Shown: positions 9,540 through 16,456, counted from the first letter of the stretch. The stretch: DNA of 17,528 bases from a bacterium (GCA_030699255.1 JAUYJR010000052.1:1-17528), one strand, 5' to 3'. Notes: generated by a model from the sequence alone, not told the origin. Program-made: numbers and translations.

Positions 9540-9590
9540 AAATATATTTTGATTTTGCTTCCCTTTGTACTCTTTTTTTGCCCTTGTGTC

Positions 9591-9657
9591 AACAAAAACC
9601 GGCTTGGGGCTGTGGGCGCAACAGAGGAGAATGTTGTTGTACCCCCAGCCCCAAACC
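9591..9657 (-). terminator. intrinsic terminator closing the hammerhead/structured-RNA transcription unit
   Basis: On the minus strand GGTTTGGGGCTGGGGG (9657-9642) pairs with CCCACAGCCCCAAGCC (9616-9601). That is 16 positions with one U-G wobble and one mismatch, around a 25-nt loop. GGTTTTTGTT follows (9600-9591). The wobble exists only on the minus strand. Confidence 0.7.
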
Positions 9658-9737
9658 GACAAATGCTTGTGTATCAAAAGTGAACCAATCTCTCCGTTGA
9701 ATTCTCGTTTTGGTTTGCCAAAACAAGAACTCAGTTG

Positions 9738-9799
9738 AGAGGAGAAGTGTGAGTTGAAAGCAGGGTGCGACCTGACTCTAACCACATTTCTCCTATTTG
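9738..9799. repeat. 62-bp direct repeat, copy 1 (self-complementary hairpin)
   Basis: Identical base for base to 10268-10329. A diverged extension runs to about 9819. Confidence 0.95.
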
Positions 9800-10179
9800 C
9801 TTGCCCCTAGGAGGGGCTTGTTGGTGTCCCTACTTTTGGTAGGGACACCGTCCGTTCCATTCAGGAGGCAGATCCTCCTGACAGGATCGGATCGAATCGG
9901 CGGGACGGGGATCATCGCTGTACAGAGTACAGCGATCCCCGTTGCACCGCGGTTGCCGCGGTTGAGGGGGAACGAGTGATTCACGTGATTCGGTGGCCAT
10001 ATGGGCCACCTCCTTCCCCGACCGGGCGAATATTTTGGAATGCCCAGGCCGGCAGAAAAAGAGAAAAACGATTGAGCAATATCAGCCAAGATACAAAATA
10101 TGGGGCTGTATTGCTGTGCAAACAGATACTTCTCTCCTTCTGCCGACCCGAGCGGTGTGTGATGTAAAAGAACTTCAAT

Positions 10180-10271
10180 CTCTGTTTTCGCTCTTTTGAG
10201 CTCATCAGCTCGGACCTCCCGTAAAGCGGGACCCCGTCCCACCACGGGACAGGTACATCCGAGAAACAGAG
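10180..10271 (-). ncRNA. hammerhead self-cleaving ribozyme, type III topology
   Basis: Core CUGAUGA (10208-10202). Stem II GCUC-AAAA-GAGC. GAA (10189-10187). A 7-bp stem III includes the A15.1-U16.1 pair. U17 is at 10264. Stem I is 6-7 bp. Full parse in the findings. Confidence 0.8.
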
Positions 10272-10329
10272 GAGAAGTGTGAGTTGAAAGCAGGGTGCGA
10301 CCTGACTCTAACCACATTTCTCCTATTTG
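10268..10329. repeat. 62-bp direct repeat, copy 2
   Basis: Identical to 9738-9799, a period of 530 bp. A diverged extension runs to about 10350. Its minus-strand 3' edge overlaps stem III of the hammerhead by 4 nt. Confidence 0.95.
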
Positions 10330-10373
10330 TTGACCCCGGTGGAGGGGCTTAGTTTACGCCGAGGCGAAAGAGG

Positions 10374-10658
10374 TCATGACACACGATGGACGCGGATCAC
10401 ATGCTTGTCGCTGACGCCGGCGTTAATGCCGACTTTGTACGCCGAGGCGTACGCGACCAACTCCAGGCGCTCTCCCACCTGGAGGGCGTCGAGCAGTGGG
10501 GTCCACTGCTCCGTCAACGCCTCGACGTTCTTGTCGCTCATGCGCCCTTTGGCGCAAGAGCGAGCGTTTTCGGCCGCAATTGCGGCCAGATGCTCGGCAT
10601 CACTCGGGGCCACGGTCTGAATCTGGCCACCATAGCGACTAACCTCAAATAAATGCAT
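10374..10658 (-). CDS. hypothetical protein, 94 aa (islet ORF)
   Basis: ATG preceded by GAAGGAGGATATC, a strong SD with a 5-nt spacer. G/C-rich third codon positions throughout. I recognise no family. Confidence 0.7.
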   Translation of the reverse strand: MHLFEVSRYGGQIQTVAPSDAEHLAAIAAENARSCAKGRMSDKNVEALTEQWTPLLDALQVGERLELVAYASAYKVGINAGVSDKHVIRVHRVS

Positions 10659-10819
10659 GATATCCTCCTTCTGCCCGGATAACGTTCCGGGCCAACATAT
10701 TTGTCCACAGAAGACCTTTGCAAGATCAACTGCCTCCTGTGGAACAAGGAACCAACAATATACATTGTCTTCTCCTTGCTCCGCAGGATGGATGATATAA
10801 AAGGTACTACTGCTCTATT

Positions 10820-10856
10820 CAGAACAAGCAAACTCTCCTGTTTAAGGAGAGTTTGC
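10820..10856 (-). terminator. terminator/attenuator-like hairpin inside the 5' leader of the 94-aa ORF
   Basis: Minus strand reads GCAAACTCTCC-TTAAACA-GGAGAGTTTGC, an 11-bp perfect stem, followed by TTGTTCTG. It lies about 65-100 nt downstream of promoter P3. Confidence 0.4.
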
Positions 10857-10927
10857 GTCCATTTTCTCTTTATTGGCGCCGGTCTCTCCCCAAACCGGCG
10901 CCATCCATATGCTTGATTGTTAAGGGC

Positions 10928-10955
10928 ATTATATCACACTTTCCAGATTTGTCAA
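10928..10955 (-). promoter_or_regulatory. near-consensus sigma70 promoter P3 (extended -10)
   Basis: Minus strand reads TTGACA (10955-10950), a 16-nt spacer, then TGATATAAT (10936-10928). Confidence 0.65.
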
Positions 10956-11060
10956 GCCCTTTCATTCCCTGTGAAAATCCACTACGTCAATGAACTTTCA
11001 CAGGGAGAGCAGAGAGTAGAAAATAATTCGTGCAGTTTTATTTTCTCTCTCTGCTCTTTG

Positions 11061-11504
11061 TCACACAATAGCGGCGAGTGACGCGCCGAGGAGCTTCTCG
11101 GCAACCTGCCGAGCAAGCTCCTCCAAAGCAGAACCTTCCATGTCCTCCGGCCGGACAAGAAAGTCTGCCTTGGCAAACCCCTTGGCCGGGTCGGTAGTCA
11201 AGTCGAGTGTTACCACTCGACCCTGCCACTCAACCCAGCCATCCACACCATGGTACCGATCGGCGGGGCTGCCGACCGCAGTGTACAGACGGAGCTGGAA
11301 CCAATCTTCCAGCTCCAGCGCCATACACACCGTGGCGTGGAGATCGGAGGCCATCCGTGGGCCAGGATCGGCCGGATCCCACGGCTGGCACTCCCTCACC
11401 AGAGCCAGGGCCTGCCTGTATGGCAGGTACTCCTGGCTCTGGCGCCAGACGCACTCTCCGAGCACCTCGTGCTCAAAGAGCCTTCCAGTGTAACCGTTGC
11501 CCAC
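11061..11504 (-). CDS. hypothetical protein, 147 aa (islet ORF)
   Basis: GTG at 11504 preceded by AAAGGAGGTAAGTTC (SD AGGAGG, 7-nt spacer). Strong G/C bias at third codon positions. The track's start at 11558 lies upstream of the gene's own -10 box. I recognise no family. Confidence 0.7.
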   Translation of the reverse strand: MGNGYTGRLFEHEVLGECVWRQSQEYLPYRQALALVRECQPWDPADPGPRMASDLHATVCMALELEDWFQLRLYTAVGSPADRYHGVDGWVEWQGRVVTLDLTTDPAKGFAKADFLVRPEDMEGSALEELARQVAEKLLGASLAAIV

Positions 11505-11548
11505 GAACTTACCTCCTTTCAAATCAAATTTTGTAGTGATCTGGGAAT

Positions 11549-11577
11549 AGTATATCACAAATATAAAGAAAAGTCAA
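11549..11577 (-). promoter_or_regulatory. near-consensus sigma70 promoter P2 (extended -10)
   Basis: Minus strand reads TTGACT (11577-11572), a 17-nt spacer, then TGATATACT (11557-11549). It shares GGGCTTGAC and GTGATATA with P3. Confidence 0.65.
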
Positions 11578-11602
11578 GCCCCCTTGAGGACCTGACTATA
11601 CG

Positions 11603-11836
11603 CTATTGCCGCGTATTTTTTGGAGGCCAAAGAATCTTTACAACGCATCCTTTCTCCCCTATTGGGGAGCATTTTGGACAGTCAGCACCAAACACTGCTG
11701 TGGCACCAACTGCTCCTTTTCCCATCCTCTCCCGCAACTCCTCCTTTCTTTTGTTACTGAGGAGCTGTGCAAATCTCTCCCATTCCACGGAGTACTCTCC
11801 GCATATGGGACACTGAAAGGTAAAGATGCCCTGCAA
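11603..11836 (-). CDS. small zinc-ribbon protein, 77 aa (islet ORF)
   Basis: Two CxxC pairs (CPIC near the N-terminus, CPKC near the C-terminus). TTG start preceded by AAAGGAG with an 8-nt spacer. Confidence 0.55.
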   Translation of the reverse strand: MQGIFTFQCPICGEYSVEWERFAQLLSNKRKEELRERMGKGAVGATAVFGADCPKCSPIGEKGCVVKILWPPKNTRQ

Positions 11837-11894
11837 GATACCAGCTCCTTTCTCTACAACATGTCTACAACCGTTTTTCCTGGAGCCGAGAGGT

Positions 11895-15590: not shown

Positions 15591-16456
15591 CCTGTCGACA
15601 TTTTTCTTCCGTTACCAGAAGGATCGGACTATATCTTCACCCCACAATCACTTTGCGACTAAGGGGGTCGGCGTGTTATACAGATTTTAGCTCTGTATAA
15701 GGAACATATTGTTAATGTTCACAAGTCTCTACGGGGCTATAAATCAATTTGTATTTCATGGATGGAATCAGGAGATCTCCGATTAAATTTTTCAGAGTCG
15801 GTATAGAAGACTTGATAAATCTTATACGATAGTATTCTTTGTCGCGATTCAACCTTGCCTCTAATCCTATTTTACAAAGAAGTCGTATAAGTCTAAGTTG
15901 GTCCTCAATGCCGAACTGTTGCGTATTCAGGTATATATCTGAATCTCTGCACCTACTTCCATCATCCATAAACCATATGCTTACAACATGGGGATCGAGC
16001 CGAAGTTCTGTTGGAATAACTTTTTTGCCATTGCGATAAAATCGCCGGTATAATTCGGTTATTTCCGGATGTTGGCGGGTATAAAAACGGTATGCGACTC
16101 TTTGGCCGTTTCCATTTCGCATCTTTGGTCCCGAAACACAGATACTTCGCAGTATGCTGAATTTCCAATCAACATACTCTTTTGCCCGAAACATATGATT
16201 TACTTCCAGAAAAGCATCCTTTCTTCCCGGCATGATCCGGAGGTATCCATCACCAAGGATCGAACCGAGAATTGTAGATGTCTGTAATTGAGTTAAGCTT
16301 CCCACGGCATTGTCCATAGATATGGGTACATTATACCATATGGAGTTCACCGTTATAAGCCGATTTTTGTTTTTCTTCGAATCTCTATTTCTCTCGAAGA
16401 ACAGGTATGACATTACTGCCATAGCACCCCGATTATAAATTTATAACTTATGGTTA
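15591..16456 (-). mobile_element. group I intron in 23S domain V (between E. coli U2500 and C2501)
   Basis: The exon sequence GTTCGGCACCT | CGATGTCGGCTC is split by 866 nt. The 5' exon ends in U and the intron ends in G. The intron segment GGGTGCT (16429-16423) can pair with the exon end GGCACCT (16463-16457) as P1, with a U-G pair at the splice site. A LAGLIDADG ORF sits inside. Confidence 0.8.
15712..16422 (-). CDS. LAGLIDADG homing endonuclease (double-motif, intron-encoded)
   Basis: Two LAGLIDADG motifs (ILGSILGDGYL and VSIWFMDDGS) at monomeric double-domain spacing. The true start may be the internal Met at 16317 (MDNAVGSL...). That would leave more 5' intron sequence for the ribozyme core. 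Confidence 0.9.
   Translation of the reverse strand: MAVMSYLFFERNRDSKKNKNRLITVNSIWYNVPISMDNAVGSLTQLQTSTILGSILGDGYLRIMPGRKDAFLEVNHMFRAKEYVDWKFSILRSICVSGPKMRNGNGQRVAYRFYTRQHPEITELYRRFYRNGKKVIPTELRLDPHVVSIWFMDDGSRCRDSDIYLNTQQFGIEDQLRLIRLLCKIGLEARLNRDKEYYRIRFIKSSIPTLKNLIGDLLIPSMKYKLIYSPVETCEH

What the first reader, a model, noticed from the sequence alone, without database searches (positions are those of the whole stretch)
9738..10350. Two perfect 62-bp direct repeats 530 bp apart bracket the ribozyme and RNA; each is a hairpin burying an SD-AUG
Positions 9738-9799 and 10268-10329 are identical at all 62 positions. Each is followed by a diverged extension of about 21 nt, to about 9819 and 10350. 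In that extension a CCCC/GGGG hairpin is retained while the loop differs. The sequences diverge abruptly on the other side. On the minus strand each 62-mer folds with AGGAGAAAUGUG pairing to CACACUUCUCCU, with one A-C mismatch. Inner helices are GAGU/ACUC and CAGG/CCUG. An SD-like AGGAGA and an AUG are therefore sequestered in the stem. Copy 2 abuts the hammerhead: its last 4 nt are the start of stem III, so cleavage would leave this hairpin at the 3' end of the upstream mRNA. Copy 1 sits near the 3' end of the structured RNA. Perfect identity beside diverged flanks suggests one of three things: a recent duplication, gene conversion, or a repeated module such as a protein-binding or processing hairpin or a small mobile palindromic element. 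One window cannot separate these.
Basis: seen in the sequence. Interest (0 to 1): 0.65.

Follow-up and report, generated by a model that had tools for sequence, protein, structure and literature searches.

The report
Twin hairpin modules flanking a hammerhead
A Patescibacteria genome island carries two old copies of an ~85-nt RNA hairpin module, recently made identical over 62 nt by gene conversion; one sits directly against a hammerhead ribozyme and would cap the cut mRNA, an arrangement that also recurs in phages.

Summary
Positions 9738-9799 and 10268-10329 are identical (62/62). Each copy is followed on the plus strand by a diverged ~21-nt extension that keeps a small GC hairpin, and each folds into a stable hairpin (-24.5 kcal/mol, z -5.5). 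Copy 2 overlaps stem III of a canonical type III hammerhead on the gene strand (10271->10180, cleavage U10264|C10263).

The repeat lies in a ~2.2-2.4-kb hypervariable island between PBP2 and greA of a Wildermuthbacteria-like bacterium. Four strains carry four different cargo sets there.

Between strains, orf94 has dS 0.84. The block from the extension through the hammerhead and cargo is ~97% identical, except for a ~22-nt patch in the hairpin's 5' arm. That patch lies inside the 62-mer. The two extensions differ at 8 of 27 aligned positions. So these are old paralogous modules homogenised by recent gene conversion. A fresh duplication is unlikely.

The relative keeps the hairpin's stability with a different pairing register. 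Ten of 17 distinct phage hammerheads have a hairpin abutting stem III, against a 3.3% background.

Most likely the module is a 3'-end capping hairpin coupled to ribozyme cleavage. The SD-AUG is incidental. The module was absent from GTDB representatives, JGI metagenomes, IMG/VR, GenBank phages and plasmids. The rest of this genome was not available to search.

The parts
10268..10329 (-). Module copy 2 (M2): the 62-nt perfect repeat. It forms a long interrupted hairpin (paired 10324->10270). Its last 4 nt are the outer part of the 5' strand of hammerhead stem III.
10330..10352 (-). Extension of copy 2: a small GC hairpin (GCCCC...GGGGU, 10348->10333) plus the linker UCAAC. The AACA that spans the linker/62-mer junction (10331-10328) can pair with UGUU of stem III.
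10180..10271 (-). Type III hammerhead ribozyme. Stem III 5' strand 10271->10265; H17 = U10264; predicted cleavage between 10264 and 10263. Stem I 10263->10209, with a ~43-nt two-hairpin insertion in loop I. CUGAUGA 10208->10202; stem II 10201->10190; GAA 10189->10187; stem III 3' strand 10186->10180.
   Evidence: conserved in L001
9823..10179 (-). Cargo RNA released by cleavage. It comprises a spacer, a long G-U-containing hairpin (10152->10043), then a chain of perfect short hairpins. It contains an uncalled 56-aa ORF (10000->9830). No Rfam family matches. It is replaced by an antisense hicAB-like pair in L031.
9800..9822 (-). Extension of copy 1: a small GC hairpin (GCCCCU...AGGGGC) plus the linker CAAGC. 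It differs from the copy-2 extension at 8 of 27 aligned positions.
9738..9799 (-). Module copy 1 (M1): the same 62-nt hairpin, at the 3' end of the cargo.
9691..9737 (-). A 16-bp hairpin (9733->9698). UCUC (9740->9737, of which 9740-9738 are the last nt of copy 1) pairs with GAGA (9694->9691) and encloses this hairpin, in the position that the hammerhead occupies after copy 2.
9592..9659 (-). Intrinsic terminator (61-nt GC-rich hairpin plus a UUUUUGU run) ending the transcription unit. It is the shared right boundary of the island in L031, L035 and, in part, L034.
10374..10658 (-). orf94: a real gene of unknown function whose 3' UTR carries copy 2. dN/dS is 0.19 and dS is 0.84 against its only known homolog.
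10928..10955 (-). Consensus sigma-70 promoter (TTGACA-16-TATAAT, TG-extended) that presumably drives the orf94 / module / hammerhead / cargo unit.

Best explanation
The repeat consists of two paralogous copies of an ~85-nt RNA module: a small GC hairpin, a short linker, and a long 55-nt interrupted hairpin. Each copy sits at the 3' end of one of two consecutive units of a single transcript: orf94, and a ~360-nt hairpin-rich cargo RNA. The transcript lies in a hypervariable cargo island of a Patescibacteria genome.

Proposed mechanism:
1. Transcription from the promoter at 10955 runs through orf94, module copy 2, the hammerhead, the cargo and module copy 1 to the terminator at ~9600. This step is inferred from consensus motifs.
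2. The type III hammerhead cuts between U10264 and C10263. This is inferred from a fully canonical core; activity was not assayed.
3. The orf94 mRNA then ends in the module hairpin plus GUUU with a 2',3'-cyclic phosphate. The hairpin stacks directly on stem III before cleavage and afterwards acts as a 3' cap against 3'-to-5' exonucleases. This is inferred from established knowledge of 3' stem-loop protection and from the recurrence of the same layout in phage hammerheads.
4. The downstream 5'-OH RNA carries the same module near its own 3' end.

The perfect 62-nt identity is a recent gene-conversion (non-allelic recombination) tract between two old copies. It is not a fresh duplication.

A 4-bp alternative helix (AACA 5' of the hairpin with UGUU of stem III) is isoenergetic with the active fold and could modulate cleavage. 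This rests on the folding model only.
For: - Repeat and hairpin.
- Canonical hammerhead that shares 4 nt with copy 2.
- Conservation in L001: the same orf94 -> module -> hammerhead -> cargo order is present. The hairpin's stability is kept (-24.6 vs -24.5 kcal/mol) with a 6-nt insertion and a changed pairing register. The A-C mismatch becomes a G-C pair. The 3' arm and apical loop are nearly invariant.
- Divergence pattern: orf94 has dS 0.84 and dN/dS 0.19. The block 10352->9993 is ~97% identical between strains apart from a ~22-nt patch in the hairpin's 5' arm, and that patch lies inside the 62-mer.
- The extensions differ at 8 of 27 positions; the probability of 0 differences in 62 nt at that rate is 3e-10.
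- Ten of 17 distinct phage type III hammerheads sharing this stem II have a hairpin of <= -13 kcal/mol ending within 3 nt of stem III, against 3.3% of random 45-mers from the same loci.
- Published view that bacterial and phage hammerheads process polycistronic RNAs into pieces of differing stability: PMC3088659, PMC6765202.
- The active and clamped folds are isoenergetic in both strains.
- Independent assemblies support both junctions of copy 2.
Against: - There are no RNA data. Cleavage, transcript ends and any stabilising effect are untested.
- Only two strains carry the module, so the structural conservation rests on a single comparison.
- Copy 1 has no ribozyme beside it, so its 3' end would have to arise by trimming from the terminator.
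- The cargo folds almost as well on the opposite strand (-248 vs -257 kcal/mol). Its hairpins are therefore plain palindromes, with no sign that they evolved as structures on one RNA strand.
- Other cassettes in the island end in different hairpins, so the module is not general.
- The direction of the conversion, or whether L001 was the converted copy, cannot be decided without L001's downstream copy.
Confidence: 0.5

Rival explanations
1. The module is a DNA-level recombination site that bounds exchangeable cassettes. It would be analogous to integron attC hairpins or to attL/attR, and the 530-bp hammerhead-plus-cargo unit would have entered, or can leave, by recombination within the 62-nt core.
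For: - The modules sit at the 3' ends of two successive units in an island with four different cargo sets in four strains.
- A divergence breakpoint falls inside the module.
- Perfect core identity with one diverged side and one unrelated side is the pattern expected of attL/attR.
- The hairpin forms on both strands.
- L031 carries an antisense toxin-antitoxin cassette, as chromosomal integron arrays often do.
- The L002 contig stops exactly at the core's end, which fits a mixed population with and without the unit.
Against: - No integrase or recombinase is present in the 17.5-kb window or in the syntenic L032.
- The attC signature is absent. The GTT/AAC elements are internal and in the reverse order, and the base of the hairpin is AGGAGAA/UUCUCCU (reading).
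- The other cassettes in the window, and all those in L034, lack the module.
- In L031 the hammerhead side stays while copy 1 is lost, which recombination between the two modules would not produce.
- L001 already has the unit, and its core differs from the window's, which is odd for a conserved att core.
- No copies were found elsewhere.
Confidence: 0.17
2. The 62-mer is a small mobile palindromic element (MITE/REP/PATE-like) that inserted twice recently, so that it brackets the ribozyme only by coincidence.
For: - It is a compact hairpin with perfect identity between copies and sits in intergenic sequence.
- IS200/IS605-type ends are directly repeated hairpins (own knowledge, not tested).
Against: - Both copies are preceded by a homologous but diverged extension hairpin, so the repeated unit is older and larger than the 62-mer.
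- There are no terminal inverted repeats beyond the hairpin itself and no target-site duplication.
- Only two copies occur in 17.5 kb, and none in GTDB representatives, JGI metagenomes, IMG/VR, GenBank phages or plasmids.
- The orthologous copy in L001 is at the same site with a diverged arm.
- No Y1 transposase or other transposase was detected.
Confidence: 0.07
3. The hairpin is a translational control element that hides an SD and AUG, for an ORF that begins inside the module.
For: AGGAGA and AUG lie in the 5' arm of a stable hairpin. A 174-aa ORF runs from that AUG to a TAG in copy 1.
Against: - The ORF has no relative among 1.84 billion representative proteins.
- It is not called as a gene in the collection.
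- Indels of 6 and 2 nt break the frame in L001, where the AUG is shifted and its ORF stops in the hammerhead core.
- The ribozyme would cut the ORF 54 nt after the AUG.
- The GGAG-to-AUG spacing is only 2-3 nt.
- The SD-like arm is the variable one, while the CU-rich arm is conserved.
Confidence: 0.04
4. The duplication is an assembly artefact, for example a chimeric join of strain variants across a shared 62-mer.
For: - The sample contains several strain variants of this island.
- The L002 contig ends at the repeat boundary.
- The junction from cargo through extension 1 to copy 1 is seen only in the window.
Against: - The 62-nt repeat is shorter than a standard read, so reads span it with both flanks.
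- The orf94 - module - hammerhead - cargo path is contiguous in an independent run and strain.
- Extension 1 is a distinct sequence that must exist somewhere next to the 62-mer.
- A k=31 graph is expected to break exactly where L002 ends if the repeat is real.
Confidence: 0.05

Closest known systems
Type III hammerhead ribozymes in phage/prophage intergenic regions (Perreault et al. 2011, PMC3088659; Rfam clan CL00010)
   Same: The catalytic core and stem II (CUGAUGA-GCUC-AAAA-GAGC-GAAA) are identical to 28 IMG/VR phage loci. Stem I is 6 bp and starts its loop with UGU, as in the phage copies. The position between transcription-unit parts matches, and a stable hairpin directly 5' of stem III is present in 10 of 17 distinct phage examples.
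   Different: Loop I carries a ~43-nt two-hairpin insertion, so Rfam models give only a partial match (21.2 bits against a 52-bit gathering score). The host is a CPR bacterium's chromosomal island with no phage genes nearby. No gene start follows the ribozyme, only an RBS-like remnant. The upstream hairpin is much longer (55 nt) and is duplicated downstream.
3'-terminal stabiliser stem-loops left by mRNA processing (e.g. phage T7 RNase III sites; REP stabilisers in E. coli operons) - own knowledge
   Same: A stable hairpin ends up at the new 3' end of the upstream cistron after an endonucleolytic cut. Similar hairpins recur after successive units of one transcript.
   Different: Here the cut would be made by a self-cleaving ribozyme rather than by a protein nuclease, and would leave a 2',3'-cyclic phosphate. 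The stabilising effect has not been tested.
Integron attC sites / CALIN cassette arrays
   Same: Hairpin-forming repeats in direct orientation lie at the 3' end of small cassettes in a variable array. A toxin-antitoxin cassette in reverse orientation is present in a sister strain.
   Different: There are no R''/R' core sites in the attC arrangement and no integrase in 17.5 kb. Most cassettes in the island lack the module, and each cassette has its own promoter.
Retrozymes / viroid-like circular RNAs with hammerheads
   Same: Direct repeats bracket a ~0.5-kb non-coding, highly structured segment that contains a hammerhead.
   Different: Only one of the two repeats adjoins a ribozyme, so a unit-length RNA cannot be excised. 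The fold is a chain of local hairpins rather than a rod. No other copies were found.

Membership tests
Hammerhead ribozyme (type III) | Conserved core: C3 U4 G5 A6 N7 G8 A9, G12 A13 A14, the A15.1-U16.1 pair, and H17 not G | tested here: met
   CUGAUGA at 10208-10202; GAA at 10189-10187; A10186 pairs with U10265; H17 = U10264. All of these are identical in L001.
Hammerhead ribozyme (type III) | Three helices around the core with Watson-Crick pairs adjacent to it (1.1-2.1, 10.1-11.1, 15.1-16.1); stems I and II closed, stem III open | tested here: met
   The adjacent pairs are C10263-G10209, G10201-C10190 and A10186-U10265. The MFE of the isolated ribozyme gives the three-way junction. The fold with these helices enforced lies within 0.1 kcal/mol of the MFE in full context.
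Hammerhead ribozyme (type III) | Score above the Rfam gathering threshold | tested here: not met
   There is no hit at gathering thresholds. The only hit is a partial HH9 match of 21.2 bits against 52, explained by the 43-nt insertion in loop I. A model built from 13 phage hammerheads hits at E 4e-8, but those sequences were selected by the same 23-nt core, so this is not an independent test.
Hammerhead ribozyme (type III) | Self-cleavage activity | not testable with these tools
   This needs in-vitro transcription or mapping of RNA ends.
Integron attC recombination site | R'' (RYYYAAC) at the 5' base and R' (GTTRRRY) at the 3' base of the hairpin, with L boxes and extrahelical bases | tested here: not met
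   The base of the hairpin is AGGAGAA/UUCUCCU. The GTT and AAC elements are internal and in GTT...AAC order on both strands (sequence).
Integron attC recombination site | An integron integrase and attI nearby, or an array of many attC sites | tested here: not met
   The window ORFs give no recombinase domain. There are only two modules, and the other cassettes end in unrelated hairpins.
MITE / REP / PATE-type mobile palindromic repeat | Many dispersed copies at unrelated sites | tested here: inconclusive
   There are two copies in the window. No true matches were found in GTDB representatives, JGI metagenomes or IMG/VR with two patterns. The rest of this genome was not available.
Intrinsic (Rho-independent) terminator | A GC-rich hairpin immediately followed by a U tract | tested here: not met
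   The terminator scan did not flag the module. Copy 1 is followed by CAACUGAG and copy 2 by GUUUCUCGG. The real terminator is at 9659-9592.
Retrozyme / viroid-like hammerhead element | A ribozyme in each repeat, so that a unit-length RNA is excised; rod-like or branched circular RNA | tested here: not met
   There is only one hammerhead in the window. The region after copy 1 matches no ribozyme. The fold is a chain of local hairpins.

The most novel reading that the evidence does not exclude
The hairpin module is the boundary or recombination site of a previously undescribed, integrase-independent cassette-exchange system in Patescibacteria hypervariable islands. Under this reading, the 530-bp hammerhead-plus-cargo unit is a small mobile, ribozyme-bearing cassette that moves by recombination within the 62-nt core, possibly through a circular intermediate.
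Probability: 0.1. Interest if true: 0.7.

Novelty: new variant of a known kind. Interest (0 to 1): 0.38.

Why it matters
The biological role of bacterial and phage hammerheads is still described as undefined (PMC6765202). This locus, together with the phage loci gathered here, shows a recurrent and testable architecture. A stable hairpin abuts stem III, so self-cleavage would leave a capped 3' end on the upstream mRNA. That gives a concrete mechanism for the proposal that ribozymes process polycistronic RNAs into pieces of differing stability.

The locus also documents a hammerhead with an expanded loop I in a CPR bacterium. It offers a clean small-scale example of gene conversion homogenising RNA modules inside a strain-variable cargo island. 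If the isoenergetic clamped and active folds are real, the module could also tune ribozyme activity.

Tried and rejected
- Is the 174-aa ORF spanning the unit a gene? No. It has zero relatives among 1.84 billion representatives, no Pfam, PHROG or NCBIfam hit, is not called as a gene, and is frame-broken in L001.
- Known RNA family for the cargo or the module? None in Rfam, even at E <= 10.
- Dispersed repeat? The 21-mer CAGGTCGCACCCTGCTTTCAA gave 0 hits in the genome, metagenome and viral collections. The gapped pattern AAGCCCCTCC-N10-14-AAATAGGAGAA gave 5 hits, none module-like.
- Cargo hairpins and the stem I insertion in viral contigs: 0 hits.
- The element, orf94 and orf147 against GenBank phages, and the element against plasmids: no match.
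- Does the duplication extend beyond the module (AGAGATTG..GTTC..CTTTT..ACACA after both copies)? Not significant: 63 of 1000 shuffles scored as well.
- Is the cargo a decayed paralog of orf94? No similarity at the DNA or protein level.
- Structure of orf94: the AlphaFold2 model had pLDDT 53 and was unusable, so no fold search was run. The PADLOC hit to Csx1 (E 0.012) is too weak to use.
- orf147 homologs sit in unrelated accessory contexts with no hammerhead or module nearby.
- Attempts to retrieve an independent contig across copy 1, through exact GreA, partial edge ORFs and GT2, all failed.
- Is the cargo structure specific to one RNA strand? The two strands fold almost equally well, so no claim of an evolved RNA structure is made.

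Full report
**Observation.** The window holds a perfect 62-nt direct repeat at 9738-9799 and 10268-10329, with a spacing of 530 nt. The chance expectation for such a repeat is ~7e-30. Nearly all genes here are on the minus strand, so I read the region in that orientation. The order is as follows.
- orf94 (10658->10374).
- A small GC hairpin plus linker, here called extension 2 (10352->10330).
- The 62-mer copy 2.
- A hammerhead.
- About 360 nt of hairpin-rich sequence, here called the cargo.
- A second small GC hairpin, extension 1 (9822->9800).
- The 62-mer copy 1.
- A 16-bp hairpin.
- A strong intrinsic terminator (9659->9592).
- The greA promoter and greA itself (9539->9084; Pfam GreA_GreB).

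The 62-mer folds into an interrupted hairpin of -24.5 kcal/mol (z -5.5, 0 of 200 shuffles as stable). Both extensions keep a CCCC/GGGG hairpin. The extensions differ at 8 of 27 aligned columns, and on the other side of the 62-mer similarity stops at once.

**The ribozyme.** Rfam's gathering thresholds give no ribozyme, and a permissive scan gives only a partial HH9 match. Inspection and folding nevertheless show a complete hammerhead.
- The 5' strand of stem III is CUCUGUU (10271->10265).
- H17 is U10264, and cleavage is predicted before C10263.
- Stem I is CUCGGA(U)/(G)UCCGAG, with a ~43-nt two-hairpin insertion in its loop.
- The core reads CUGAUGA, stem II is GCUC-AAAA-GAGC, then GAA, and the 3' strand of stem III is AACAGAG.

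Every criterion used by Perreault et al. (PMC3088659) is met. Because stem III is the open stem, this is a type III hammerhead. The exact core plus stem II occurs in 28 IMG/VR phage contigs, which are ordinary short type III, and a few type I, hammerheads in intergenic regions. A covariance model built from 13 of them finds the window and L001 sites at E ~4e-8. This is only partly independent, because the phage loci were selected by the same core.

**Genomic setting.** GreA homologs place the organism in Patescibacteria, near Wildermuthbacteria.
- In the MAG contig L032 (GreA 80% identical), PBP2 is followed by greA after only ~310 nt. In the window about 2.4 kb lies between them.
- Strain L031/L035 (GreA 94%) starts with 29 nt identical to the window's post-hammerhead spacer. 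It then lacks the long hairpin, carries an antisense hicAB-like pair in place of the cargo, has no copy 1, and rejoins the window at the terminator.
- Strain L034 has yet another cargo (92-aa and 58-aa ORFs) between the same boundary promoter and terminator, with no module and no hammerhead.

The repeat therefore lies in a hypervariable cargo island whose cassettes each carry a near-consensus promoter. GC content is raised across 9650-11600. No recombinase is present in the window.

**Is anything coding between the repeats?** A 174-aa ORF runs from the AUG in copy 2 to a TAG in copy 1, but it is not a gene.
- It has no relative among 1.84 billion representative proteins.
- It has no family hit.
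- No gene was called anywhere in 9565-10317 in a 15-billion-protein collection.
- Indels of 6 nt and 2 nt break the frame in L001.

A 56-aa Cys-rich ORF with a good SD (10000->9830) remains unresolved. The released 529-nt RNA is extremely structured (-257 kcal/mol, z -11.4). Its complement folds almost as well (-248, z -9.7). The structure is therefore mostly plain palindromes, and I make no claim that it evolved on one RNA strand.

**Origin of the perfect identity.** L001 (another run, another strain) carries orf94, the module, the hammerhead and the cargo start in one contiguous piece. orf94 is a real gene with deeply diverged alleles: dN/dS 0.19, dS 0.84, 66 of 282 nt different. From extension 2 onward (10352->9993), however, the two strains are ~97% identical. 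The exception is one ~22-nt patch, the 5' arm of the long hairpin, which has a 6-nt indel and several substitutions, plus one change in the 3' arm. That patch lies inside the 62 nt that are identical between the window's two copies.

The extensions of the two copies are ~30% diverged, so the copies are old. At that rate, zero differences in 62 nt has P ~3e-10. The simplest reading is two old paralogous modules, with a recent gene-conversion tract covering the 62 nt in the window lineage. Alternatively, a corresponding event occurred in L001. A fresh duplication would have copied the extension too.

L001's hairpin keeps the same stability (-24.6 kcal/mol) with a different pairing register, turns the A-C mismatch into a G-C pair, and keeps the apical CAGG-UCGCAC-CCUG stem-loop. 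This argues for selection on the hairpin and on the sequence of its 3' arm. It rests on a single comparison.

**Function.** In the full-context fold, the module hairpin and stem III are contiguous with no unpaired base between them. The same layout recurs in phages.
- Among 17 distinct type III hammerheads sharing this stem II, 10 have a hairpin of <= -13 kcal/mol ending within 3 nt of stem III. An eleventh ends 8 nt away.
- Only 3.3% of random 45-mers from the same loci do so.
- Collapsing the set to about six sequence types, four of which have a hairpin, still gives P ~2e-5.

Cleavage would therefore leave the hairpin plus GUUU with a 2',3'-cyclic phosphate at the 3' end of the upstream mRNA. 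From established knowledge of 3' stem-loops blocking 3'-to-5' exonucleases, the best-supported role is a 3'-end cap coupled to ribozyme processing. This fits the published but unproven idea that bacterial and phage hammerheads split polycistronic RNAs into parts of differing stability (PMC3088659, PMC6765202). Copy 1 occupies the equivalent position at the end of the cargo. There, a plain hairpin enclosed by UCUC...GAGA sits where the hammerhead sits after copy 2.

An alternative 4-bp helix, AACA (10331-10328) with UGUU (10268-10265), competes with stem III. It is isoenergetic with the active fold in both strains (-72.7 vs -72.6 and -68.7 vs -68.6 kcal/mol). It could act as a switch, but this is a model-level result only.

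**Rivals.**
- *attC- or att-like recombination site.* This fits the cassette-end position, the breakpoint inside the module and the variable island. Against it: no integrase, no attC core arrangement, no module on the other cassettes, and no copies elsewhere. L031 also keeps the hammerhead side while losing copy 1.
- *MITE-like element.* Disfavoured by the older, larger homologous unit, the orthologous position in L001, and the lack of other copies. The rest of this genome could not be searched.
- *SD-AUG control.* Not supported, for the reasons given above.
- *Assembly artefact.* Unlikely. The repeat is shorter than a read, L001 is contiguous across copy 2, and the Logan contig L002 ends exactly at base 10268, as a k=31 graph should at a true repeat. 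The junction into copy 1 is, however, seen only in the window.

**Comparison and verdict.** The ribozyme is a new member of the hammerhead class, with an unusual loop I insertion, in a CPR chromosome. The repeat is a lineage-restricted pair of 3' hairpin modules homogenised by conversion. The hairpin-abutting-hammerhead architecture is shared with many phage loci, and in the papers I searched and read I did not find it described as a unit. That makes this a new variant of a known kind with moderate interest. The main open possibility of higher interest is that the module marks exchangeable cassettes in an integrase-less system (probability ~0.1).

Noticed in passing
window 9661-11883 (compare L031:1-552, L034:1216-2147, L032:9692-10000): The interval between PBP2 and greA is a hypervariable cargo island, with four different gene sets in four related strains. 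Only the boundary promoter and the terminator are shared. In the window, three cassettes each have a near-consensus sigma-70 promoter (11922, 11577, 10955).
   Followed up: partly
L003-L030 (IMG/VR loci), about 45 nt upstream of each hammerhead: Phage type III hammerheads with stem II GCUC-AAAA-GAGC very often have a stable hairpin directly abutting stem III (10 of 17 distinct, against 3.3% background). Several share the motif GUGUCUUYAAAGACAC. The hairpin and hammerhead may form a functional unit.
   Followed up: partly
window 10265-10268 and 10328-10331 (minus strand); same positions in L001: AACA just 5' of the module hairpin can pair with UGUU of hammerhead stem III. The clamped (inactive) and active folds are isoenergetic in both strains, each about 40% populated in the ensemble.
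   Followed up: partly
window 15591-16456, ORF 15712-16422 (-): The 23S rRNA gene carries a ~0.87-kb insertion relative to L032. It encodes a LAGLIDADG_2 homing endonuclease (Pfam E 1.5e-36), so it is a probable rRNA intron or insertion of the kind common in CPR bacteria.
   Followed up: partly
L031:28-255 (-): The HicA-like toxin ORF has an in-frame TGA where I would expect a Gly codon (KK*FEVDHVTGSHH). It is either a pseudogene or a hint of UGA recoding in the donor of this cassette.
   Followed up: no
L032:9710-9995: In the relative that lacks the island, the PBP2-greA spacer holds a 26-bp perfect long-range inverted repeat that includes a tRNA T-arm-like GAGTTCGAATCCCGCCCCC and encloses ~230 nt. 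ARAGORN and Rfam (gathering thresholds) find nothing.
   Followed up: partly
window 9620-9631 and 10265-10276 (-): The 12-mer UUCUCCUCUGUU, which spans the junction of module copy 2 and stem III, recurs in the loop of the terminator upstream of greA. Four of 200 shuffles did as well, so this is marginal.
   Followed up: partly
window 10828-10856 (-) and L001:~375-420: The orf94 leader contains a terminator-like hairpin plus a U run, about 100 nt downstream of the consensus promoter. L001 keeps the hairpin with different sequence. It may be an attenuator or the end of a small RNA.
   Followed up: no
window 10130-10143 (-), 10670-10680 (-), L034:2087-2100: GGCAGAAGGAG occurs both in orf94's ribosome-binding region and 40 nt after the hammerhead. 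The 14-mer GCAGAAGGAGAGAA is also the only internal block shared with L034's island. It may be the remnant RBS of a gene that once followed the ribozyme.
   Followed up: partly
window 9830-10000 (-): A 56-aa ORF with four Cys has a GGAAGGAGG SD 8 nt upstream and lies inside the cargo. Its start and stop codons each sit in perfect hairpins. No collection calls it as a gene, and its coding status is unresolved.
   Followed up: partly
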